The translations under genes were made by a program, and so were the position numbers. Below are positions 21,165-40,410 of a stretch of 64,000 nt of DNA, piece by piece. How positions within the stretch are numbered: the stretch's first letter is position 1; each line of letters begins with the position of its first letter. Below the pieces are notes generated by a model. The model did no database searches, was not told the origin of the DNA, and saw nothing but the letters and a program-made list of their open reading frames with translations. The stretch comes from Longimicrobiales bacterium (GTDB lineage: Bacteria > Gemmatimonadota > Gemmatimonadetes > Longimicrobiales > Gaopeijiaceae). The stretch spans positions 128,001 through 192,000 of the forward strand of contig CBDCNQ010000003.1 of assembly GCA_965219445.1 (NCBI GenBank). The letters run 5' to 3'.

Positions 21165-21232
21165 GGTATTCCTCCGAAGTAGCACCTTAATGCTACCGGG
21201 TTTGAGGTTGGGTCAATAGGTGTGTAAATGTT

Positions 21233-22477
21233 TCAGGCGGCGTTTTTCCGCTGTTGGGTTGAGACGGGCTTTCCGTCTTCGAACTTTCTTCCTTCAAATA
21301 CGTCCTTGAGGAGGTGAGGAGCGTCGAGCCTTCTGAAGCGCTTCTCCGCCACCAAGAGCAGCTTCCAGATCAGCGCCGTAGCGCTCTCGACCCGCTTGAA
21401 GCGCTTCGCCGCCGTTGTCCTGAGCCGTACTGCGGCAAAGGGGCTCTCGACCACGTTCGTCGTGCGTAGATGCTTCCAGTGGTCCTCGGGGAAGTCGTAG
21501 AACGCCACCATCCGCTCCCAGTCGTCCTCGAGTACATCCACCGCCTTCGGATACCACGGTCTGTAGCGCCTGGCGAACGCCTCACGGGCCTTCAGCGCCT
21601 CGGACCGCCTCGGTGCGTAGACCACGGTCCTGAGAAGGTCCTTCGCCTCGCTCTGCTCCCGCTGAGGCAGCCGGTCCAGCACGTTCCTCATCTTGTGGTT
21701 CCAGCACCGTTGCTCGCCCGCCTCAGGCCATACCTGCCGTACTGCGCCCCAGATCGCCGCGTTGCCGTCCGCCATCAAAAGCCGGGGCGCCTCGATGCCG
21801 CGTGCCTTCAGATCCCGCAACACCTCGGACCAGGACTCGACCGACTCTCGGTAGCCCGATCTCAGGGCCAACACCTCCTTCGTACCATCTCGCATCGCAC
21901 CGAGAACCACCAGCAGCGCTGCCTTGTCCCGCTCGAGCCCCGCCTTCACGTAGATCCCGTCCGCCCAGACGTAGACGACCTCACGGTCGGCCAGCGAGCG
22001 CTTCGACCATTCCTCGAATTTCCTTGTCCATCCCGCCCGCAGCCGCCAAATCGAAGACTTCGACAACGGGGCCCCCTCGCCCAGCAGGCCCCGCATCGCC
22101 AGCTCGAAGTCTCCCTCCGCCAGCCCGTGCAGATACAGCTCCGGAAGCAGAGCACCCACCTCCTTCGTCCGTCGTGCGAACAACGGCAACACCCGACTCT
22201 CGAACCGCTCCTCAATGCCTCGAACCCGGGGCCGTCGGAGCATGATCGTGCCCGAGCTCATCGCCAGCCGCCGAGCCTTGCCGTAGCCGTTGCGGTAGCC
22301 TGGCGCCGGGTCTACGACCGTCTTCCGCTCCGACTTCTCCCGGCCGAGCAACTCCGTCACTTCCTCCTCCAGAATCCGCTGGACCATCTCCTGGGCCTTC
22401 TCACGAACCAGCGCTTCCAAGCACTCCCACGTCGGCGTGCTGGACTCACTCTCGGGTCCCACCATATTCTTCCTCAC
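21233..22477 (-). CDS. IS256-family (Mutator-like) DDE transposase
   Basis: GYRNGY, YVWADG, LMADG, QRCWNHK, LRTTNVVES; same protein as 35865..37109. Confidence 0.95.
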   Translation of the reverse strand: MRKNMVGPESESSTPTWECLEALVREKAQEMVQRILEEEVTELLGREKSERKTVVDPAPGYRNGYGKARRLAMSSGTIMLRRPRVRGIEERFESRVLPLFARRTKEVGALLPELYLHGLAEGDFELAMRGLLGEGAPLSKSSIWRLRAGWTRKFEEWSKRSLADREVVYVWADGIYVKAGLERDKAALLVVLGAMRDGTKEVLALRSGYRESVESWSEVLRDLKARGIEAPRLLMADGNAAIWGAVRQVWPEAGEQRCWNHKMRNVLDRLPQREQSEAKDLLRTVVYAPRRSEALKAREAFARRYRPWYPKAVDVLEDDWERMVAFYDFPEDHWKHLRTTNVVESPFAAVRLRTTAAKRFKRVESATALIWKLLLVAEKRFRRLDAPHLLKDVFEGRKFEDGKPVSTQQRKNAA

Positions 22478-22573
22478 GAGGCATCGTTCCTTTCCCCCGG
22501 GCGCTCACCCGGGATTCGCTGGTTAACTTCTTACTACCTAGCGGAAAGGTACGTCGCCTCTTTTTTTACACAC

Positions 22574-24167
22574 CCTTCTATGGGGCTGGCGGTCAAGACG
22601 CACCTTCCCCACGCGCCGTCGGCTCATTTTTTGACCGTCGGCGTCCGCATGGTTTGGATTGCCCGGTCGACGACTCAGGGTGGGGAGGGGTGCGCTCGCA
22701 GGGTCCGCATCGCAGTCCGGAAGACGTTCACAGCCGTCGCGTTCTCCGCTCTGGAGCGGGAACCATCCTTCTATCTGGGACTCTGTGGCCCATCGCTTCG
22801 TTCGGCTCTCCAGGGGTGCATAGCCTTTGAGTGGGGGCTTGGGCTCTCTGCCCCGGCCCACGGTGTGTATGGATGCTGTCCCCTGTAACCGGTTCGCTTC
22901 CGTTTCGTCGGACCCCATGTTGTGACCGCTTTCGACCCCACGCTCGCCGATCCCGGCCCGGTTTACTCCGTCGCTTCCAGTCTCTTGGGGTCGTACGCTT
23001 CGCCCGTGCGCCACACCGCTAGCACGATCGAGGCGAGCTGACGCGCGATCGTCAGCTTCGCCAGATTCGGCTTCGTGCCCCCCTCCAGGAGTCGCTCGTA
23101 GTGGCGGTACAAGGGTTCGTTTTCGGCCCGACCGATCACCGTCGTCGCCGCGCCCTTGAACACACGCTTCAGCGTGTGGTTGAAGTTCCGATTCAGCCCC
23201 CGCGTCTGCTGTACCGGTTCCCTTACCCACCGCCCACCCGGACCCCGCACCCAGTCCGACGAGCTCCGCATCACGACGCCCAGTCCGCAGTACGCCCAGA
23301 ACCTGCTCCGGCTCTGGAACCGGTACGGCGTCACCACCACCGGCAGGAGCTCCGCCGTCCGGATCGGACCCAGACCCGGGCACGTCTTCAGCACATGCCA
23401 CTCTCGATGCTTGCGTGCTTCCGCCAGCAAGGCCTTCTCGGCCTTCGCCCTCAATGCCACGAGTGCGTCGTGCTCCTCGTACAGCAACCCGGCCGTCGTC
23501 CTGCTCGCTTCCGGCAGCTTGGCCAACCACTCCTCCCGGTCGCGCTTCAAGTAGACCGAGCGCCCCGCGCCGTAGGCCACTCCTCTCGAGCGCAGCACGC
23601 TCTTGAGCCGGTTCTTCACCCGCACCGTGTCGCCGACCAGGAAGTCGTAGCTCTTCGCCCGTTCCCCCAGCCGCCTGAACTGGCCCCGGTTCTTGTAGAC
23701 CCTCGTCTCCAGTGATCCGATCCGCAGCTTCTCCGCCAGGGCAAACGCGTCCAGCTTGTCGGTCTTCGGGCCCCGGCTCTTGCCGACCCCCGCCACCGTT
23801 AGCTCCTCCACGTGCGGCTCCAGCACCTCGTACAGCCACCCCGACAGCGTCCCTTCTTCCAGGCACAAGTGCCGGTTCCTCGGAATCCCTCGCAGCACCT
23901 CGATCAGCGCCCGCGCGTTCGTCTCCACCACCTGCGAGCCCAAGCGCTTGCCGCTGGGGCCTACAATCCCCAGCGTGCAGCTCGACGCGTGTGCGTCGAG
24001 TCCGATATATCTCTCCATCGGCGTTCTCCTCTTGGATAGGTGGGTTGCTTCCTTGCGCGAACAATGATGAACGCGCACCCGTTCCCGGAGGAGAACGCCT
24101 CTTCGTCTTCGGGCTGCTTCGCTGCTGATCGGTACCGGTAGCGGTCGCCATGCCCCTATGATGCCTT
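22574..24167 (-). mobile_element. IS110-family (IS1111-type) element copy A, core to core
   Basis: AAGG core at both junctions (CCTT at 22574-77 and 24164-67); imperfect sub-terminal IRs; ~390-nt 3' non-coding region. Confidence 0.88.
22963..24018 (-). CDS. IS110-family DEDD recombinase/transposase
   Basis: YIGLD, CLEE, KTDKLDA (DEDD); CPGLGP; FWAYCGL..RSS; AKLTIARQLA. Confidence 0.93.
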   Translation of the reverse strand: MERYIGLDAHASSCTLGIVGPSGKRLGSQVVETNARALIEVLRGIPRNRHLCLEEGTLSGWLYEVLEPHVEELTVAGVGKSRGPKTDKLDAFALAEKLRIGSLETRVYKNRGQFRRLGERAKSYDFLVGDTVRVKNRLKSVLRSRGVAYGAGRSVYLKRDREEWLAKLPEASRTTAGLLYEEHDALVALRAKAEKALLAEARKHREWHVLKTCPGLGPIRTAELLPVVVTPYRFQSRSRFWAYCGLGVVMRSSSDWVRGPGGRWVREPVQQTRGLNRNFNHTLKRVFKGAATTVIGRAENEPLYRHYERLLEGGTKPNLAKLTIARQLASIVLAVWRTGEAYDPKRLEATE

Positions 24168-24179
24168 TGATCCTAGCTC

Positions 24180-30499: not shown

Positions 30500-32831
30500 C
30501 AACGTCGCCACCTGAGACGCCACCCGAGACACCTGCTCACCGCGAGCCAGCCCTCCCGCTCATCCCATCACGCTTGAATCCCAAACGCCAGCACTTTCAT
30601 ATTAATTCCCCATCCGCTGGCGAAGCTCCTCGAACCAGTTCTGGACGATCTGGACCTGCCTCAGCCTCGACGGGTCGCTCTTGACCATCACGAAGCGCCC
30701 ATCCGGCCCGACATCCCAGTTGATGAACTGAGAGAAGTCGTAGCCACTGGCATCGAAAAGTTCTCGGGGAGGACCGGACGAGAAGGTGGGAGAGGTGCTA
30801 ACCTCGACTGCCAAAATGCGGGTGCCACTCCGATAGAATATCTCGCGCCCGTCCTTGGACCACTTCCCCTCCACACCGCCGCCAATGGAGACGGAGTGGC
30901 GGGGTCCGGGACCCGGAAACGGCCTGACGTAAACCTCCCTGGCGCCCGACACGTTGGAGTAGTACGCGACCCAGCGTCCGTCGGGTGAGAAGTTGGGAGC
31001 GGACTCGGAAGCCGGCGTAGCGAGAAACGGTGCTGAAGATCCGTCGACGAGGTTGATGACAGCCAGATCCGAGCCGTTTTCCGGGTGGATCTCGTTCACC
31101 ATGATGTGATCATCAATCGACCAGGAGGGCTGGTATTGCGGCAGAGGCCGGGCGGACGCTAACTGCGGCCCGCCGCCCTCGCGCCAACGTATCCAGTGCA
31201 GATCGCCACCGAAGGAAAACCCCAACCGCTCACCATCAGGTGCCCAGGCTAGACTCGGATGATGTCCGTCGGTCGTGAGGGGTTCCGCGCTTCCCCTCTG
31301 CAGGTCCACCATCCAGACATCAGAGGGACGGGGATCCACGATCACAGCCACCCGGTTTCCGTCAGGAGAGACGCGCGGCCAACGATAGCCTCGCGCCTCG
31401 ACCGGGATCCGCTCCTCTGAACCATCGCGAGCGACGAGCCAGAGAGACCGCTCGAAGCCTCCGGCGACATAAGCCAGCGTTCCCGTTTCCGATACGGCGA
31501 AGGCGGCTGCACTGCCGCCAGGACCACGAAACACACCTTCGAGGACCGGGACCTCCGCACCGTTTACCTCCAAGCGGTCGATGTCGAACGGCACGGCTCG
31601 TATCCGCTCTTCGCCCGCATGGAAGAGGAGATGACCAGTCGGGACATAACGCGCCTGTGTCCCATTGAACAAGAACCGCACCTCTCCGGTCCCAAGATCG
31701 AGAACACCCGTTCCCCCGATGACGCTCACCAGTGCATGCTCGCCATCCGGAAGGTGGTGCGGCCACCGTGGCTGCCCCCCCCGATCGCAGTAGAATCAGC
31801 ACCGGCTCGACCTGTTTGGTCGACCTGGGTGAGCCCAAGCGGCACGGGGTCTCCGCCTGCCATCGGTACGCGATACAGGCTGGGCCCTGCCGCGAATAGG
31901 ATCGTGTTGTCGGCTCCCCAGCTCGCTCCACGGGTCTCTCCAGATGGCAAGGGAGTGATGGTGATCGGAGCCCCACCGGATACCGAGACCCTCTGTAGCT
32001 GGCCGCTCGCGAAGAACCCCACCCACTCGGCATCCGGCGAGAAGAACGGTTGTCGCGCATCGTCCGTGCCATCCAACTCTCGCGGGGACAAGTCATCGAG
32101 CTCGCGTAAGAACAGGCTCCTGACTCCGGCCCGCTCTCCTACGTACACCAGCCGCGTACCGTCGCCGGAAATGGCCAGTGGGTGGCCAAGCCGTCCCCCG
32201 AACACTCGTTGGTCCTCCGGGAGTGAAATCTGCGTTCGAGTCACCGGCTGCCGGGGCTGCGGTCGCATCCAGCCCCACAGGACGAGCCCGATAGCGACCA
32301 CGGCCACCGCGGGCCACGCGACCATGCCCAGCCCCTGGGCACGGAACGTGGACATGGCGGCAGGTGCCGGCTCGGAGGTCATGAAGGAGGGATCTCCCAG
32401 GGCCTGCGAAAAAAGAACGGCGCTCGAAAATCGATCGGCTGGCAGCTTCTCCAGCGCCTTAGCAATCGCCGCATCTACGTTGGCCGGGACGGTCTCCCGC
32501 TGAGCGGCCGCCGACACGCGCTCACCGGCGATGATTTTGCCCAGGATCGCCTGCGGAGTGCTCCCGGTGAACGGCGGCTCTCCGACCAGCGTCTCATACA
32601 AGACGCAGCCGAGGGCGTATATGTCTGCCGCAGGACCCAGATGTTGACCGCCAGCTGCCTGTTCCGGGCTCATGTAGTGGGGCGTCCCGAGGCTCAGCCC
32701 GGTCTCGGTCAGACGACCCCCTCCCGCTCCGCCGACAGCGAGCGCGATCCCGAAGTCCGTGATCACCGGCTGACCATCGTGGATCAGAACTGGAGTTGGC
32801 CCCGCACGGTGGACGGTTTTGGACTAGAGAT

Positions 32832-33680
32832 TCACGCGGCGGGGGCGTGTTCCTTTTCGTAGTTAAGAGGAGACAATTGGCCGAGGGCAGAGTGCCGTCG
32901 GTGGGGATTGTACCAGGCTTCGATGAAGTCGAACACGGCCATCCTGGCCTCGGCCTGATTGCGGAAGCTCTTTCGTTCGATGAGTTCGGTCTCGAGCGTG
33001 GCGAAGAAGCTCTCGCACATCGCGTTATCGTACGCGTCGCCGACCGAGCCCATCGAGGGTCGGACGCTGGCCTCTTTGCAGCGTAGGCCGAAGGCGATCG
33101 AGGTGTACTGGGTACCCTGATCGCTATGATGGATGACACCGTTCGGTCGTCGTTGCTGCAGCGCCATGTTCAGCGCGTCGAGCACGAGATCGGTCTTGAG
33201 ATGCGTCTTCATCGACCATCCGACCACATGGCGGCTCCACGCATCGACGACGACTGACAGGTACAAGAAGCCGCTCCAGGTCGGCACGTAGGTGATGTCG
33301 GCAACCCAGAGCTGGTCCGGGCCGTGCACACTGAAGTCGCGCGCGACGAGATCGGGGGCAGGTCGAGCATCTCTGTTTCGCTTCGTCGTGCGCCACTTCC
33401 TTCGCCGCGTAGCGCCTTGTAGTCCTGCCAGCCTCATCAGACGACGCACCCGCTTGTGGTTGACCTGCCAGCCGTCGTCCCTGAGCTCGGCGTACATCCG
33501 TGGCTGGCCATACGTCTCACGGCTGAACGTGTGGATCTCACGCATCCGACCTAGCAGTCGCTCGTTCTCGACCGCGCGATGCGATGGAGGACGCTTTCTC
33601 CATGCGTAGTACCCGCTGGGCGAGACGCTCAGGACTTCGCACATCATCTGCACGCTGAACTCGGCCTGGTTGGCCCTCAC
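32832..33680 (-). CDS. IS3 OrfB (rve integrase core)
   Basis: WVADITY, HHSDQGTQY, DNAMCESFF, YN..RRHSALG. Confidence 0.93.
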   Translation of the reverse strand: MRANQAEFSVQMMCEVLSVSPSGYYAWRKRPPSHRAVENERLLGRMREIHTFSRETYGQPRMYAELRDDGWQVNHKRVRRLMRLAGLQGATRRRKWRTTKRNRDARPAPDLVARDFSVHGPDQLWVADITYVPTWSGFLYLSVVVDAWSRHVVGWSMKTHLKTDLVLDALNMALQQRRPNGVIHHSDQGTQYTSIAFGLRCKEASVRPSMGSVGDAYDNAMCESFFATLETELIERKSFRNQAEARMAVFDFIEAWYNPHRRHSALGQLSPLNYEKEHAPAA

Positions 33681-33991
33681 GAACTCGAACGCTTCGGGGG
33701 CACCGAGTCGGACTCCTGAGCGAACCAGGCCGCGGCTTTTTTTAGGATCTCCCGCTCGACACGAAGCCGCTTGTTCTCACGCCGAAGCTCGCGGAGCTCC
33801 TCGCGCTCTGACGACGTCAGGCCGTCGCTTCTGACTCCCGTGTCGAGGTCCGTCTGCTTCACCCAATTGTGGATCGTCTGCGCTGTGGGCTCAAACTCCC
33901 GACTCAGCTCCTCAGGCGTGCGACCTGCTTTGACCAGCTCCACCATCTGCTGGCGGAACTCCAACGAATACGGCGGTCTCGTTCTTGGCAT
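33677..33991 (-). CDS. IS3 OrfA (HTH); A7G slippery site for -1 frameshift at ~33743-33736
   Basis: YSLEFR...ELRELRRENKRLRVEREILKKAAAWFA; AAAAAAAG on the minus strand. Confidence 0.92.
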   Translation of the reverse strand: MPRTRPPYSLEFRQQMVELVKAGRTPEELSREFEPTAQTIHNWVKQTDLDTGVRSDGLTSSEREELRELRRENKRLRVEREILKKAAAWFAQESDSVPPKRSSS

Positions 33992-34324
33992 CGTGGACTC
34001 CTCTCTCTAAAGAGAATAGGTGTCCACCGTCAGGGGCTAACTCCAAACGTTACCGGGCTTGATGTCGCGATGAATTACGCCTTGGCGGTGTGAATAGTCG
34101 AGGGCCTCCGCCATGTTCGTGGCGATCCGCACTGCTACGTCCACTGGGAGTTGATGAGAGCTAGGATCAAAGGCATCATAGGGGCATGGCGACCGCTACC
34201 GGTACCGATCAGCAGCGAAGCAGCCCGAAGACGAAGAGGCGTTCTCCTCCGGGAGCGGGTGCGCGTTCATCATTATTCGCGCAAGCAAGCAACCCAACCC
34301 GTCCTACCCAAGAGGAGGATGCCG

Positions 34325-35379
34325 ATGGAGAGGTATATCGGACTCGACGCACACGCGTCGAGCTGCACGCTGGGGATTGTAGGCCCCAGCGGCAAGCGCT
34401 TGGGCTCGCAGGTGGTGGAGACGAACGCGCGGGCGCTGATCGAGGTGCTGCGAGGGATTCCGAGGAACCGGCACTTATGCCTGGAAGAAGGGACGCTGTC
34501 GGGGTGGCTGTACGAGGTGCTGAAGCCGCACGTGGAGGAGCTGACGGTGGCGGGGGTCGGCAAGAGCCGGGGCCCGAAGACCGACAAGCTGGACGCGTTT
34601 GCCCTGGCGGAGAAGCTGCGGATCGGATCACTGGAGACGACGGTCTACAAGAACCGGGGCCAGTTCAGGCGGCTGGGGGAACGGGCGAAGAGCTACGACT
34701 TCTTGGTCGGCGACACGGTGCGGGTGAAGAACCGGCTCAAGAGCGTGCTGCGCTCGAGAGGAGTGGCCTACGGCGCGGGGCGCTCGGTCTACTTAAAGCG
34801 CGACCGGGAGGAGTGGTTGGCCAAGCTGCCGGAAGCGAGCAGGACGACGGCCGGGTTGCTGTACGAGGAGCACGACGCACTCGTGGCATTGAGGGCGAAG
34901 GCCGAGAAGGCGTTGCTGGCGGAAGCACGCAAGCATCGAGAGTGGCATGTGCTGAAGACGTGCCCGGGTCTGGGTCCGATCCGGACGGCGGAGCTCCTGC
35001 CGGTGGTGGTGACGCCGTACCGGTTCCAGAGCCGGAGCAGGTTCTGGGCGTACTGCGGACTGGGCGTCGTGATGCGGAGCTCGTCGGACTGGGTGCGGGG
35101 TCCGGGTGGGCGGTGGGTAAGGGAACCGGTACAGCAGACGCGGGGGCTGAATCGGAACTTCAACCACACGCTGAAGCGTGTGTTCAAGGGCGCAGCGACG
35201 ACGGTGATCGGTCGGGCCGAGGACGAGCCCTTGTACCGCCACTACGAGCGACTCCTGGAGGGGGGCACGAAGCCGAATCTGGCGAAGCTGACGATCGCGC
35301 GTCAGCTCGCCTCGATCGTGCTAGCGGTGTGGCGCACGGGCGAAGCGTACGACCCAAGAGACTGGAAGCGACGGAGTAA
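34325..35379 (+). CDS. IS110 recombinase copy B (CCC instead of CCCC at 35353 shifts the last ~7 codons)
   Basis: Near-identical to 22963..24018 with several substitutions (E/K, R/T, N/D); the copy-A stop corresponds to TAA 35377-79. Confidence 0.88.
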
Positions 35380-35439
35380 ACCGGCCTGGGATCGGCGAGC
35401 GTGGGGTCGAAAGCGGTCACAACATGGGGTCCGACGAAA

Positions 35440-35660
35440 CGGAAGCGAACCGGTTACAGGGGACAGCATCCATACACACCGTGGGCCGGGGCAGAGAGCC
35501 CAAGCCCCCACTCAAAGGCTATGCACCCCTGGAGAGCCGAACGAAGCGATGGGCCACAGAGTCCCAGATAGAAGGATGGTTCCCGCTCCAGAGCGGAGAA
35601 CGCGACGGCTGTGAACGTCTTCCGGACTGCGATGCGGACCCTGCGAGCGCACCCCTCCCC
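35440..35660 (+). ncRNA. Predicted bridge/seek RNA in the IS110 3' non-coding region (mirror copy at ~22680-22900 on the minus strand); boundaries approximate
   Basis: TACACACC (35473-80) and TCAAAGG (35512-18) match the target halves and face each other in a stem-bounded internal loop; ATAGAAGG (35568-75) matches the donor junction. Confidence 0.72.
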
Positions 35661-35864
35661 ACCCTGAGTCGTCGACCGGGCAATCCAAACCATGCGGACG
35701 CCGACGGTCAAAAAATGAGCCGACGGCGCGTGGGGAAGGTGCGTCTTGACCGCCAGCCCCATAGAAGGGTGTGTAAAAAAAGAGGCGACGTACCTTTCCG
35801 CTAGGTAGTAAGAAGTTAACCAGCGAATCCCGGGTGAGCGCCCGGGGGAAAGGAACGATGCCTC

Positions 35865-37109
35865 GTGAGGAAGAATATGGTGGGACCCGAGAGTGAGTCC
35901 AGCACGCCGACGTGGGAGTGCTTGGAAGCGCTGGTTCGTGAGAAGGCCCAGGAGATGGTCCAGCGGATTCTGGAGGAGGAAGTGACGGAGTTGCTCGGCC
36001 GGGAGAAGTCGGAGCGGAAGACGGTCGTAGACCCGGCGCCAGGCTACCGCAACGGCTACGGCAAGGCTCGGCGGCTGGCGATGAGCTCGGGCACGATCAT
36101 GCTCCGACGGCCCCGGGTTCGAGGCATTGAGGAGCGGTTCGAGAGTCGGGTGTTGCCGTTGTTCGCACGACGGACGAAGGAGGTGGGTGCTCTGCTTCCG
36201 GAGCTGTATCTGCACGGGCTGGCGGAGGGAGACTTCGAGCTGGCGATGCGGGGCCTGCTGGGCGAGGGGGCCCCGTTGTCGAAGTCTTCGATTTGGCGGC
36301 TGCGGGCGGGATGGACAAGGAAATTCGAGGAATGGTCGAAGCGCTCGCTGGCCGACCGTGAGGTCGTCTACGTCTGGGCGGACGGGATCTACGTGAAGGC
36401 GGGGCTCGAGCGGGACAAGGCAGCGCTGCTGGTGGTTCTCGGTGCGATGCGAGATGGTACGAAGGAGGTGTTGGCCCTGAGATCGGGCTACCGAGAGTCG
36501 GTCGAGTCCTGGTCCGAGGTGTTGCGGGATCTGAAGGCACGCGGCATCGAGGCGCCCCGGCTTTTGATGGCGGACGGCAACGCGGCGATCTGGGGCGCAG
36601 TACGGCAGGTATGGCCTGAGGCGGGCGAGCAACGGTGCTGGAACCACAAGATGAGGAACGTGCTGGACCGGCTGCCTCAGCGGGAGCAGAGCGAGGCGAA
36701 GGACCTTCTCAGGACCGTGGTCTACGCACCGAGGCGGTCCGAGGCGCTGAAGGCCCGTGAGGCGTTCGCCAGGCGCTACAGACCGTGGTATCCGAAGGCG
36801 GTGGATGTACTCGAGGACGACTGGGAGCGGATGGTGGCGTTCTACGACTTCCCCGAGGACCACTGGAAGCATCTACGCACGACGAACGTGGTCGAGAGCC
36901 CCTTTGCCGCAGTACGGCTCAGGACAACGGCGGCGAAGCGCTTCAAGCGGGTCGAGAGCGCTACGGCGCTGATCTGGAAGCTGCTCTTGGTGGCGGAGAA
37001 GCGCTTCAGAAGGCTCGACGCTCCTCACCTCCTCAAGGACGTATTTGAAGGAAGAAAGTTCGAAGACGGAAAGCCCGTCTCAACCCAACAGCGGAAAAAC
37101 GCCGCCTGA
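35865..37109 (+). CDS. IS256-family DDE transposase copy B
   Basis: Translation identical to 21233..22477. Confidence 0.95.
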   Translation: MRKNMVGPESESSTPTWECLEALVREKAQEMVQRILEEEVTELLGREKSERKTVVDPAPGYRNGYGKARRLAMSSGTIMLRRPRVRGIEERFESRVLPLFARRTKEVGALLPELYLHGLAEGDFELAMRGLLGEGAPLSKSSIWRLRAGWTRKFEEWSKRSLADREVVYVWADGIYVKAGLERDKAALLVVLGAMRDGTKEVLALRSGYRESVESWSEVLRDLKARGIEAPRLLMADGNAAIWGAVRQVWPEAGEQRCWNHKMRNVLDRLPQREQSEAKDLLRTVVYAPRRSEALKAREAFARRYRPWYPKAVDVLEDDWERMVAFYDFPEDHWKHLRTTNVVESPFAAVRLRTTAAKRFKRVESATALIWKLLLVAEKRFRRLDAPHLLKDVFEGRKFEDGKPVSTQQRKNAA

Positions 37110-37138
37110 AACATTTACACACCTATTGACCCAACCTC

Positions 37139-38256
37139 GCCGTGCCCTGTCGAGGTTCCTGGGGTACGGACCGTTCTTCTATACCGACTAGCGGCTCACC
37201 GTTGGTGCGATCGAGGATGTACACCCAGCCTGTTTTGCCCGCCTGGGCCAATCCTTTACGTGGCACGCCGTCGTATTCCAGATCAAACAAGACCACAGGG
37301 TTAGGCGCATCATAATCCCAGATATCATGATGCACCTGCTGAAAGTGCCAGCGGTACTCACCGGTGTAGGCATCCAGTGCCACGATGGACGCTGTGAACA
37401 GGTTGTCCCCGGCACGCACCGCTCCGTTGTAGTCGGGCCCGGGGTTGCCGGTCGAAAAGTAGATCATGCCCAATTCAGGATCCACTGCAGGCGTGTGCCA
37501 CACAGTGCCCCCGCCGGTTCGCCAGGCATCGTTGTCAGCAGGCCAGGTATGATGACCGAATTCGCCCGGGCCTGGCACGGTATGGAAAGTCCACAGCAAA
37601 CTGCCGTCGGCCGCACTGTAGGCCTTCACCCGCCCTCTTGCTGCAAATTCTGCACCCGCGAAGCCGGTAATCACCATGCCGTTGAAATACAAGGGAGCGC
37701 TGGTGATGGTATACCCTTCTTCCCAGGCTTCGGCCTGGATGGACCAGACCTCTTCACCGGTCTCCATATCCAGCGCCTTAAGCACGCCATCCAGCTGTCC
37801 GACAAAGATTTTGTCTTCGCCAAATCCCACACCGCGACTGGTCCATCCACAACAGACCGTCGAAATTTCATCATCAAGATTTGCCCGGTAGCTCCACAAA
37901 ATTTCACCGGTTTCAATGCCCAGGGCGAAGACATCGTCTGCACCGGTTACGACATACATGACCCCTTCGTGGATGATGGGCTGCGCCTCACCTGAATACT
38001 TCGCGCCGACCCCAGACTCGTCGAGATGAGTACGCCAGACCGGACCAAGTTGATTGACATTGTCCGTGTTGATCTCCGTCAATGCTGAGAAGTTTCGGTT
38101 GAAGAGGTCCCCGCCGTTGGTCAGCCAGTCGGCCGTAGGCAGTTCCGACAGCGTCTCTTCATCCGGTCTGACCTGTGAAGATTCAGCGGCATTTGCTGTC
38201 AGCGAGGAACACAGGACAAGTAGTCCTGCCAAAAGGTTAGACGTATGTCTATGCAT
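37139..38256 (-). pseudogene. N-terminal half of the quinohemoprotein alcohol dehydrogenase split by IS256
   Basis: Signal peptide; VCCGWTSRG; STGNPGPD; VHHDIWDYD; breaks at VPQEPRQGTA|IS end. Confidence 0.9.
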
Positions 38257-38982: not shown

Positions 38983-39210
38983 CGTTCTACCTCCCTCCTC
39001 AAGACGAGGCGTTCGGCCAAATCCTGCTTGGCATCTTTTCTACAAGGCGTCCGTCCGTTCGCTGACGGGAGCGTCCGCAACGATTACGACTCCGTAGGTC
39101 GCGGCGTCACTCGGGGCGCGCTGTTCTCGGGGAACGTAAAGGTGGTCCCTTTTGGGTGCCAGGGGACACGAGCCAAAATACTTGTACCAGTGGGCCTGGG
39201 TAGACTTGAA

Positions 39211-40410
39211 CTGTTCGGCTTGAGCGTTCACGGATTCGAGAACGTTGGTCGTCTTCAGCGAACGGCCAACCAGCGGGAACACGCCGAGTCGATGCAGGGT
39301 CAACGTCTCCTCGAACCCTTCGTCCAGGCTTGCAACCGCCGACTGGTTGAGCTCGTCCAGCTCAGCCCGCATCGCTTTCAGGTCCCGCTTCGCCTCCTCG
39401 TAGGTGGGCCGCTCGTAGGCTCGCTGCAGACGTCCACACCAGGCCTTCTGCTCGGTGCGTGGCAGGTACGAGACCACATTCTCTCGCTTGTGCCATTGGC
39501 AGCGCTGGATAAGCACCTGGCCCCGGAACACCGTCGTCACTGCCGACTTCAGCCCCTTGGCGCCGTCGATCACGACCAGCGCTCCGGCCGACAGATCGAG
39601 TCCCCGATCCTTCAGGGAGCGCAGAAAGCTCGTGATCACCCGGGCGTTCTCCGTTTCCGTCTGCACGAATCCCGCAAACACCTTGTCTCCCCCCATCGTC
39701 ACGGCTAACGCGACGACGATTTCGTCATTGGCAAACGTCTTGCCATCCAGGAAGAGCGCCACGACGTCGAGCTCCGTAAGCTCACGTTCCTGAAACGCCT
39801 TCAGCTGCCTGGCGGTCGCCTTCTTGAACTCCCGCGACACCGTCGACTTAGACAGCCCGATCGCCCCCGGCACTGCCTCCACCGCGGCCTCATAGTCACG
39901 ACACGAGATCCCAAGCAGGACCTTGCGGAACAACCCCTCGTCCACCTCGCCCGCCGCCCAGTGCAAGCGCTCGTACGACTCCAGACGCGCCTCTCCCTCC
40001 AGACCTCGCACCCGAGGGACCCGGACCGGATGACGCTGCCCGCCCAGGCGTACCGAGCCCGGGTTGCTCCCATGCCGGTAGATCACTTCTCCTTCTCCCT
40101 TGCGGGCGTGCCTCGGACCCGCCAACCGCTCGACCTCTTCGTCCAGCACCCGCCCCACCTCCGCCAGCCCAAGCGGTATCAATTCCTGGATCAATTCCAC
40201 CCGCATCTCGGTCCTCAGCGCCTCGATCGCTTCCCAGTCCAGCTCACTCGGCGCACCCATCCTTCGGTCCTTCTTGCCTCGACGTACAAGCTGTGGCTCT
40301 CTCTCCATTGGTGGCCTCCTTCCTCTCATGGTTCGGTGTTGTGTTCCTCACACCCACCTTACCCGAGGTCGGAGGTCACTTCAAATTCCAACTAAACTTA
40401 GGACACCCTC
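39211..40410 (-). mobile_element. Second, unrelated IS256-family element, 3'-truncated
   Basis: End GAGGGTGTCCTAAGTTTAGTTGG at 40410; transposase motifs LFLDGK, VIDGAKGL, QRCQWHK, TTNVLES, then loss of similarity near 39211. Confidence 0.85.

What the first reader, a model, noticed from the sequence alone, without database searches (positions are those of the whole stretch)
34158..35778. RNA-guided IS110/IS1111 recombinase apparently programmed against the terminal inverted repeat of an IS256 element
Seen: the element sits between two AAGG cores (34170-73, 35765-68). Excising it gives GAGCTAGGATCAAAGGGTGTGTAAA, which aligns without gaps to the other IS256 end GAGGTTGGGTCAATAGGTGTGTAAA, so the target is the IS256 left IR itself. 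In the 3' non-coding region, TACACACC (35473-80, reverse complement of the right target GGTGTGTA) and TCAAAGG (35512-18, identical to left target plus core) lie on opposite sides of an internal loop. That loop is closed by AGGGG..GCAT/ATGC.CCCCT outside and by GTGGG/CCCAC plus a GGGC-AGAGA-GCCC hairpin inside. Established: IS110-family bridge/seek RNAs base-pair with both target strands through such loops, IS1111-type elements carry the RNA downstream of the ORF, and IS4321/IS5075 target Tn21-family terminal IRs. Inference: this is an IS that parasitises another IS through a programmable guide. The right IR (TCAATAGG) mismatches the guide, which would explain why only the left IR is hit. I do not know of a described IS256-IR-targeting member, but cannot check.
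Basis: partly seen in the sequence, partly recalled or inferred. Interest (0 to 1): 0.92.

Follow-up and report, generated by a model that had tools for sequence, protein, structure and literature searches.

The report
RNA-guided IS lodged in IS256 ends
A small jumping gene sits at one exact spot inside the left end of another jumping gene (IS256 type), likely steered there by a predicted guide RNA that spells that end; its relatives with other guide letters sit in the ends of a different element (IS91 type), so this is a well-supported new example of a known habit.

Summary
Observation confirmed; interpretation supported by comparative data, with no bench test. The IS110/IS1111-type element has 24 left ends in this genome: 23 lie in an IS256 left tip, none in the 29 right tips, and the one stray site matches the guide 9/9. 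The predicted empty IR occurs exactly in 15 of 400 related genomes, and one filled/empty pair shares 200/200 flank bases. Across homologs both guide segments follow their flanks (0 of 20000 permutations reach the observed match), and the stems covary.

Additions: a donor-matching second loop, imperfect sub-terminal IRs and a predicted circle-junction promoter. The IS256-targeting clade nests among relatives that sit in IS91-like ends, a likely host switch.

Corrections: AAGG is a microhomology, not a proven core, and the window's frameshift is likely an assembly error.

IS1111 elements that target other elements' ends are known (IS4321/IS5075). I found no paper naming IS256. This scan has noted IS110-in-IS256-end four times on other DNA.

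The parts
34158..34173 (+). Outer 16 bp of the IS256 left IR (left target plus AAGG microhomology)
   Evidence: Same tip before 23 of 24 element left ends in the genome; intact form in 15 of 400 relatives
34174..35768 (+). IS110-family (IS1111-type) element, 1595 bp here and 1590-1597 bp in other copies. The boundary can slide 4 nt; the 7+3 convention gives 34171-35765
   Evidence: 22 full-length copies at 98.2-100% identity; filled/empty allele pairs
34178..34191 (+). Left sub-terminal inverted repeat (imperfect: 12 matches with two 1-nt insertions)
   Evidence: Sequence; perfect 9-10 bp covariant form in acidobacterial relatives
34174..34179 (+). Predicted -10 box (CATCAT), functional only in the circle, 17 nt after TTGACC
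   Evidence: Joined ends; closer-to-consensus boxes in relatives; inferred, not tested
34319..35379 (+). DEDD recombinase gene, about 351-353 aa; start likely ATG 34325; one C missing near 35352 in this copy, likely an assembly error
   Evidence: PF01548 + PF02371; D10, E56/E57, D89, D92, S254/S255 unchanged in all aligned relatives
35458..35530 (+). Predicted target-binding loop of the guide RNA (outer stems, internal loop, inner hairpin 35489-35501)
   Evidence: Fold z -2.68; 11 of 30 consensus pairs with compensatory changes in 19 sequences
35473..35480 (+). Right-target guide TACACACC (complement of the top strand; 5' guide, the IS1111 order)
   Evidence: Covaries with right flanks: 5.49/7 against 3.32 permuted, 21 distinct guides
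35510..35518 (+). Left-target guide ACTCAAAGG (would pair with the bottom strand)
   Evidence: Covaries with left flanks: 4.45/6 against 2.02 permuted, 14 distinct guides; 9/9 match to the stray site C2:336726
35568..35575 (+). Predicted left-donor guide ATAGAAGG in a second loop (about 35536-35582), identical to the element's own right end
   Evidence: Three variants each follow their own right end in relatives; the right-donor guide is only weakly supported
35746..35751 (+). Predicted -35 box TTGACC of the circle-junction promoter
   Evidence: no complete promoter in the linear sequence
35751..35762 (+). Right sub-terminal inverted repeat
   Evidence: 10 nt separate the two repeats in the circle, as in the 7+3 rule of PMC11187229
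35769..37138 (+). Rest of the IS256 element: inner part of the left IR (35769-77), transposase 35865-37109 (414 aa), right IR 37114-37138
   Evidence: PF00872; NF033543 above cut-off
34150..34157 (+). Left half of the IS256 target duplication; its partner lies at another IS256 copy on contig C4, not at 37139
21204..24179 (-). Second IS256::IS110 composite in the same window (IS110 part 22574-24163)

Best explanation
This is an IS110-family element of IS1111-type layout that sits 16 bp inside the left inverted repeat of IS256 elements, and it likely gets there by RNA guidance, because a predicted RNA from its 3' non-coding region carries two short segments that spell the two halves of that repeat. 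Shown: element boundaries, 23 of 24 left ends in IS256 left tips, exact empty alleles, and guide-flank covariation. [quoted passage not shown] Inferred from the tree: the guide was reprogrammed from an IS91-like end to the IS256 end. Splitting the IR likely immobilises the host IS256 copy, which is untested.
For: Own genome: 23 occupied and 5 empty IS256 left tips, 29 uninterrupted right tips. At least five different IS256 inner-end sequences follow the element (78-100% identity), so insertion happened repeatedly. The stray copy C2:336726 matches the 9-nt left guide fully, including two positions where the IR does not. Three stray or hybrid left flanks in relatives also match a guide in part (L101, L111, L116). 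Exact empty IR: 86 matches in 15 of 400 genomes, reversed control 0; 18 of 20 fetched loci hold IS256 transposase sequence. Filled/empty pair L015/L067: left flank 200/200, right 146/150. Permutation tests 0 of 20000 for both guides. Stems covary while guide columns vary freely. Catalytic-type residues are invariant; the profile hits IS621 and ISCro4 structures. The IS256 clade (11 rows, 100/99) nests among GATAGG-guide relatives; 5 of 5 flank ORFs tested from those relatives are Y2_Tnp, and empty ends with unrelated outer flanks exist.
Against: The RNA was not seen: no Rfam match, and the single RNA run has one contig over the ORF and none over the guide region. No circle joint was found in four runs, three of them kept only as contigs. 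Guides are related by descent, so the permutation result overstates independence. Some rows fit poorly (L027 right flank 3/7; L101 left flank 1/6), and the right guide needs three registers. G308 has one element with the matching guide yet 44 intact empty IRs; G306 has 6 elements and 5 intact empty IRs. The protein scores below the NCBIfam IS110 cut-off (112 against 140).
Confidence: 0.92

Rival explanations
1. The element entered one IS256 once, or a few times, and the copies spread as a composite moved by the IS256 transposase, so the copy count overstates active targeting.
For: 16 of 22 right junctions are followed by the same IS256 sequence. The main IS256 type is 100% identical in many copies, and 6 occupied copies have an 8-9 bp duplication in cis.
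Against: Several divergent IS256 types are occupied. Orthologous sites exist both filled and empty. Stray sites outside IS256 still match the guide. The IR is split by 1.6 kb. This rival can explain part of the copy number but not the specificity.
Confidence: 0.15
2. Target choice is protein-mediated (the recombinase, or an interaction with IS256 transposase), and the loop matches are by-products.
For: No RNA was observed, and the matches are short.
Against: Guides follow flanks across about six unrelated target classes with proteins 39-100% identical. The stray site follows the guide, not the IR. RNA guidance is shown for the family (PMC11187229, PMC11208160).
Confidence: 0.03
3. The repeated junction is an assembly artefact: collapsed repeats pasted one composite into many places.
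For: Target duplications are shuffled: 9 in cis, 10 with the partner at another copy, 9 with no exact partner. Scattered 1-nt indels occur among copies.
Against: The same junctions occur in independently assembled genomes, and a contig of run X7 spans 34158-35794. Copies differ by SNPs and sit in different IS256 types.
Confidence: 0.03

Closest known systems
IS4321 / IS5075 (IS1111 family; Partridge and Hall 2003, seen only as a title in the reference lists)
   Same: IS1111-type element with sub-terminal IRs that inserts at a fixed position in the terminal IR of another transposable element.
   Different: The target here is the 25-bp left IR of IS256-family ISs, not Tn21-family transposon ends. 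Only one of the two ends is hit. Protein relatedness was not tested.
ISEc11, ISKpn4, ISPa11, ISXne4 seekRNA elements (PMC11187229; parts 1, 2, 3 and 5 of 9 read)
   Same: Non-coding region downstream of the gene; top-strand complement 5' of the bottom-strand match; 10 nt between sub-terminal IRs in the circle; junction promoter; natural reprogramming between relatives.
   Different: The sub-terminal IRs are gapped. The C-terminal motif reads GLGVVMRSSS, not GL-P----S(t)G. The best plasmid hits are only 23-28% identical. The target is an IS end.
IS621 bridge RNA (PMC11208160; passages read)
   Same: Two internal loops, one matching the target and one matching the donor end; DEDD plus serine chemistry; the profile matches the IS621 and ISCro4 structures.
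   Different: IS621 carries the RNA upstream of the gene; per PMC11187229 the IS110-type guide order is reversed relative to IS1111. Its target is not an IS end (REP target recalled).
ISEc21 (IS110 family; PMC11187229 passage)
   Same: RNA-guided IS whose natural target lies in another IS.
   Different: It targets the second-aspartate codon region of IS3-family transposase genes, not an end, and its non-coding region is upstream.

Membership tests
IS110 family (broad) | DEDD (RuvC-like) N-terminal domain plus PF02371 C-terminal domain | tested here: met
   Both Pfam models above cut-off; D10, E56/E57, D89, D92 invariant. NCBIfam NF033542 covers the full length but scores 112, below its cut-off of 140.
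IS110 family (broad) | Sequence-specific, oriented insertion with no new duplication beyond a short shared core | tested here: met
   23 of 24 left ends at one position and orientation; removal restores the empty allele exactly.
IS1111 group | Long non-coding region downstream of the gene | tested here: met
   389 nt downstream against about 145-150 nt upstream.
IS1111 group | Sub-terminal IRs of 11-13 bp, near-perfect, with 7+3 bp extensions | tested here: inconclusive
   12 matching bases but with two 1-nt insertions; the 10-nt spacing fits; perfect 9-10 bp covariant repeats only in distant relatives.
IS1111 group | Guide order: top-strand complement 5' of bottom-strand match | tested here: met
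   35473-80 precedes 35510-18; same order in all relatives.
IS1111 group | Transposase falls in the IS1111 clade with a GL-P----S(t)G motif | tested here: inconclusive
   The motif differs. No tree with named IS1111 proteins was built. The only named plasmid hit among the 20 rows shown is ISGdi15, at 24%.
Bridge/seekRNA systems | Guide segments covary with target flanks within a conserved fold | tested here: met
Bridge/seekRNA systems | Donor-matching loop | tested here: inconclusive
   The left-donor segment follows the element's own right end in three variants; the right-donor segment shows no clear covariation.
Bridge/seekRNA systems | RNA is expressed, binds the recombinase and is needed for movement; circular intermediate | not testable with these tools
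   No RNA coverage of the region and no circle joint in four runs, which is not informative with contigs.
IS256 family (host) | Mutator-type transposase, terminal IRs, 8-9 bp target duplication | tested here: met
   NF033543 295 bits against a cut-off of 150; IRs 20/25; exact 8-9 bp duplication in 5 of 10 empty relatives with both ends in view and in 9 of 28 own copies.

The most novel reading that the evidence does not exclude
This lineage is an RNA-guided specialist on other mobile elements' ends. It jumped host from IS91-like origins to IS256 repeats by rewriting about 12 guide bases, can nearly saturate its host (23 of 28 left tips here, with all five survivors off-guide), and is in a sequence arms race with IS256. 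In G235 a changed guide base goes with a changed IR base at the same position, and in L009 the guide moved towards the right IR. It would then act as a natural programmable brake on IS256 spread.
Probability: 0.2. Interest if true: 0.7.

Novelty: new member of a known kind. Interest (0 to 1): 0.48.

Why it matters
It extends the natural targets of bridge/seekRNA recombinases to IS256 inverted repeats, a target I did not find in the papers searched. It also gives an unusually complete natural data set: many independent insertions, empty alleles, stray sites, guide variants, and a traceable retargeting from IS91-like ends to IS256 ends. That makes two questions testable: how guides get rewritten in nature, and whether such elements limit the spread of their host IS. 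The recombinase is distant from characterised ones (at most 28% identity to plasmid-borne IS110 proteins), so it may be a useful extra ortholog for programmable recombination. The behaviour itself, an IS1111-type element in another element's end, is established.

Tried and rejected
- Rfam scan of 34000-37300: no match at E<=1.
- Sigma-70 scan of the linear element: no promoter, as expected if it forms only in the circle.
- Single-sequence PDB search: nothing; the alignment profile found three IS110-related entries. No predicted structure was obtained, so the fold is untested.
- Reads and contigs of 4 runs: no circle or excision joint and no RNA over the guide region; uninformative.
- 'AAGG is the core': rejected as unproven.
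- 'The window's recombinase is a read-through 431-487 aa protein': rejected as a likely homopolymer error.
- 'All perfect targets get filled': true here (0 exact empty sites) and in G199 (0 exact, 10 variants) and G082 (0 exact, 1 variant), but not in G308 (44 exact of 45) or G306 (5 of 5). G175 has 37 variant IRs of 40 without this guide. The comparison genomes without the element were picked because they held the exact IR, so that contrast is biased. One of the five own-genome variants is a 1-nt loss in a run of A and may be a sequencing error.
- No paper gave an oriIS sequence to compare. 'oriIS' rests on position downstream of the Y2_Tnp gene plus the passage in PMC6218425.
- For the tree, duplicate and near-identical loci were left out beforehand, and 10 loci with short protein matches were dropped.

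Full report
OBSERVATION. All coordinates hold. The ORF at 34319 carries both IS110 Pfam domains, and the ORF at 35865-37109 is an IS256 transposase. Removing 34174-35768 restores a 25-bp end that matches the right IS256 end at 20 of 25 positions. The two guide words co-occur in 7 of 200000 resampled regions. The closest relatives are labelled Longimicrobiales (Gemmatimonadota), and a sponge-metagenome run holds a contig over 34158-35794.

OWN GENOME. There are 22 full-length copies and 2 broken ones with a left end. Of these 24 left ends, 23 follow an IS256 left tip. The exception (C2:336726) has a left flank identical to the 9-nt left guide, including two bases where the IR differs, and a right flank that fits the right guide at 6 of 8 positions in a register shifted by one. 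The genome has 28 IS256 left tips, 23 occupied and 5 empty, and 29 right tips, none interrupted. No exact empty 14-nt target remains. All five empty tips differ from it; one differs only by a lost A and may be an error. At least five different IS256 inner-end sequences follow the element, although 16 of 22 right junctions share one.

EMPTY ALLELES. The predicted empty IR occurs exactly 86 times in 15 of 400 other genomes of the order, all in the window's family; the reversed control gave 0. Of 20 fetched loci, 18 hold IS256 transposase sequence, 10 show the right IR about 1375 bp away, and 5 of those 10 have an exact 8-9 bp duplication. Three filled/empty pairs share a left flank. L015/L067 match at 200/200 bases on the left and 146/150 on the right. 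L005/L069 and L098/L059 match less well (183/200 and 140/198 left; 80 and 44 of 150 right, ungapped).

GUIDE COVARIATION. From loci I parsed 62 distinct guide-plus-flank rows. Duplicate fetches were merged, and inner copies of tandem duplications lost their right flank. Left guides match their own left flanks at 4.45 of 6 variable positions against 2.02 when permuted (14 guides). Right guides match at 5.49 of 7 against 3.32 (21 guides, best of three registers). No permutation of 20000 reached either value. Relatedness inflates this, but about six unrelated target classes are involved. Poor rows exist (L027, L101, L024, L036). Outside this genome, 21 of 24 places with the IS256-type guide and a readable left flank are IS256 left tips; the other three match a guide in part. 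In 19 aligned RNAs, 11 of 30 consensus pairs show two-sided changes while the guide columns vary.

A second loop carries ATAGAAGG (35568-75), identical to the element's own right end; two other variants in relatives follow their own ends. The matching right-donor segment is not convincingly covariant. Imperfect sub-terminal IRs lie at 34178-91 and 35751-62, 10 nt apart in the joined circle, as in the 7+3 rule of PMC11187229. Joining the ends puts TTGACC 17 nt before CATCAT. AAGG is a sliding microhomology, and relatives share only AG(G) between their junctions, so the true core is not fixed. The window's copy lacks a C near 35352, as do 5 of 22 copies. Contigs of two runs have it at full depth, so an intact gene ending at 35379 is likely. 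D10, E56/E57, D89, D92 and S254/S255 are invariant where aligned.

ORIGIN OF THE SPECIFICITY. In a 33-row tree the IS256-end elements form one clade (11 rows, 100/99), nested among several successive branches whose left guide ends in ATAGG (midpoint root, long-branch warning only at the base). The right flanks of several GATAGG-guide relatives resemble each other. The five flank ORFs I tested are all IS91-type Y2_Tnp C-termini pointing toward the insertion. A pattern built from those flanks found 9 uninterrupted sites in 3 of 5 genomes (one contig gave two), each with an unrelated outer flank, so the site lies a few bases inside an element end downstream of the transposase. PMC6218425 calls the downstream side of ISCR1 the oriIS side (passage); I could not check an oriIS sequence. 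Only some relatives were shown to be next to IS91-like genes; one search added L092, L026, L035 and the empty site L134. A switch from IS91-like ends to IS256 ends is therefore likely, not proven. The earlier scan note e1-5264380 gave the lead; it is marked 'part of it fell'.

SIGNS OF COEVOLUTION, AND AGAINST. In G235, three copies with left guide AACCAAAGG sit in an IR with A at the same position, while the copy with AATCAAAGG sits in the usual IR. The change is not a clean compensation (C against A). L009 (95% identical protein) has a guide shifted toward the right-IR sequence and sits in a right-IR-type tip, but its right flank is not IS256. G199 has 10 empty tips, all variant. Against: G308 has one matching element and 44 exact empty tips, G306 has 6 elements and 5 exact empty tips, and G175 has 37 variant tips without this guide. 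The arms-race reading is open, not supported.

MECHANISM. Shown: position, orientation, precise restoration of the empty allele, covariation. Inferred from the family: circle, junction promoter, RNA binding, base pairing, strand exchange. Not seen: the RNA or the circle. Untested: whether an interrupted IS256 can still move. Six occupied copies keep a duplication in cis, which fits either order of events.

COMPARISON AND NOVELTY. It works like an IS1111 seekRNA/bridge element and like IS4321/IS5075. Membership of the broad IS110 family is met. Strict IS1111 membership is partly met: the layout and guide order fit, the repeats are gapped, the motif differs and the clade is untested.

Literature seen: PMC11187229, parts 1, 2, 3 and 5 of 9 plus passages; 'IS256' occurs 0 times in its text and 0 times in five of six supplements (one scan unread). 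PMC11208160, passages; 0 hits in six of seven supplements. PMC13604230, term search with 0 hits. PMC13181058 and PMC6218425, passages. Partridge and Hall 2003, title only. Searches were seen as listings with abstract starts, none describing an IS256-IR target; searches returned nothing. Subscription papers, ISfinder and TnCentral were out of reach, so absence from print is not established. The scan's own notes list four IS110-in-IS256-end cases on other DNA, with no sequence look-alike to this one; they are unchecked and not counted as support.

VERDICT. Real, well supported, and a new member of a known kind. Its best features are the depth of natural evidence and the likely retargeting between two IS families. 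Interest 0.48.

Noticed in passing
G000:C4:1169767-1171667 (L125): A group II intron with an RT/maturase gene (Rfam RF02001, RF01998; Pfam RVT_1, GIIM) has inserted three bases after the IS110 right end, inside the inner part of the same IS256 left IR: a three-level nest.
   Followed up: partly
window 31726-34157 and L127:1-695: A Ser/Thr kinase gene is split by an IS3-type element (32791-34045) and by the IS256; its N-terminal half lies beyond an IS256 right end on contig C4.
   Followed up: partly
whole genome; window 24180-87, 34150-57, 37139-46: IS256 target duplications are shuffled: 10 of 28 left tips have their partner at another copy, including a three-way swap among the two window composites and a C4 copy. 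Real recombination between copies or mis-joins; unresolved.
   Followed up: partly
G000 C4:199262, C4:1221680, C5:267938: Three empty left tips of the main IS256 type look like hybrids of the element's left and right junctions; possible imprecise-excision scars or consensus errors.
   Followed up: partly
22 own copies, window-equivalent 34194-35227: Copies are mosaics of two SNP haplotypes with a 6-bp indel at 34297-302, suggesting recombination between two founder alleles; the guides are invariant.
   Followed up: no
L106, L107, L108 (G175): A sister element with guides TAGCCCCC / CATCATAGG sits just upstream of host genes; two copies share a 23-nt right flank and all three left flanks resemble each other, so it may target another small repeat of unknown kind.
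   Followed up: no
G000 C5:1612735-1613245; L004; L107: Tandem duplications of the element's 3' part, including the guide region and right end, occur in three genomes.
   Followed up: no
window 39040-40329: A second, unrelated IS256-family transposase lies nearby; its ends were not examined for this element's target.
   Followed up: no
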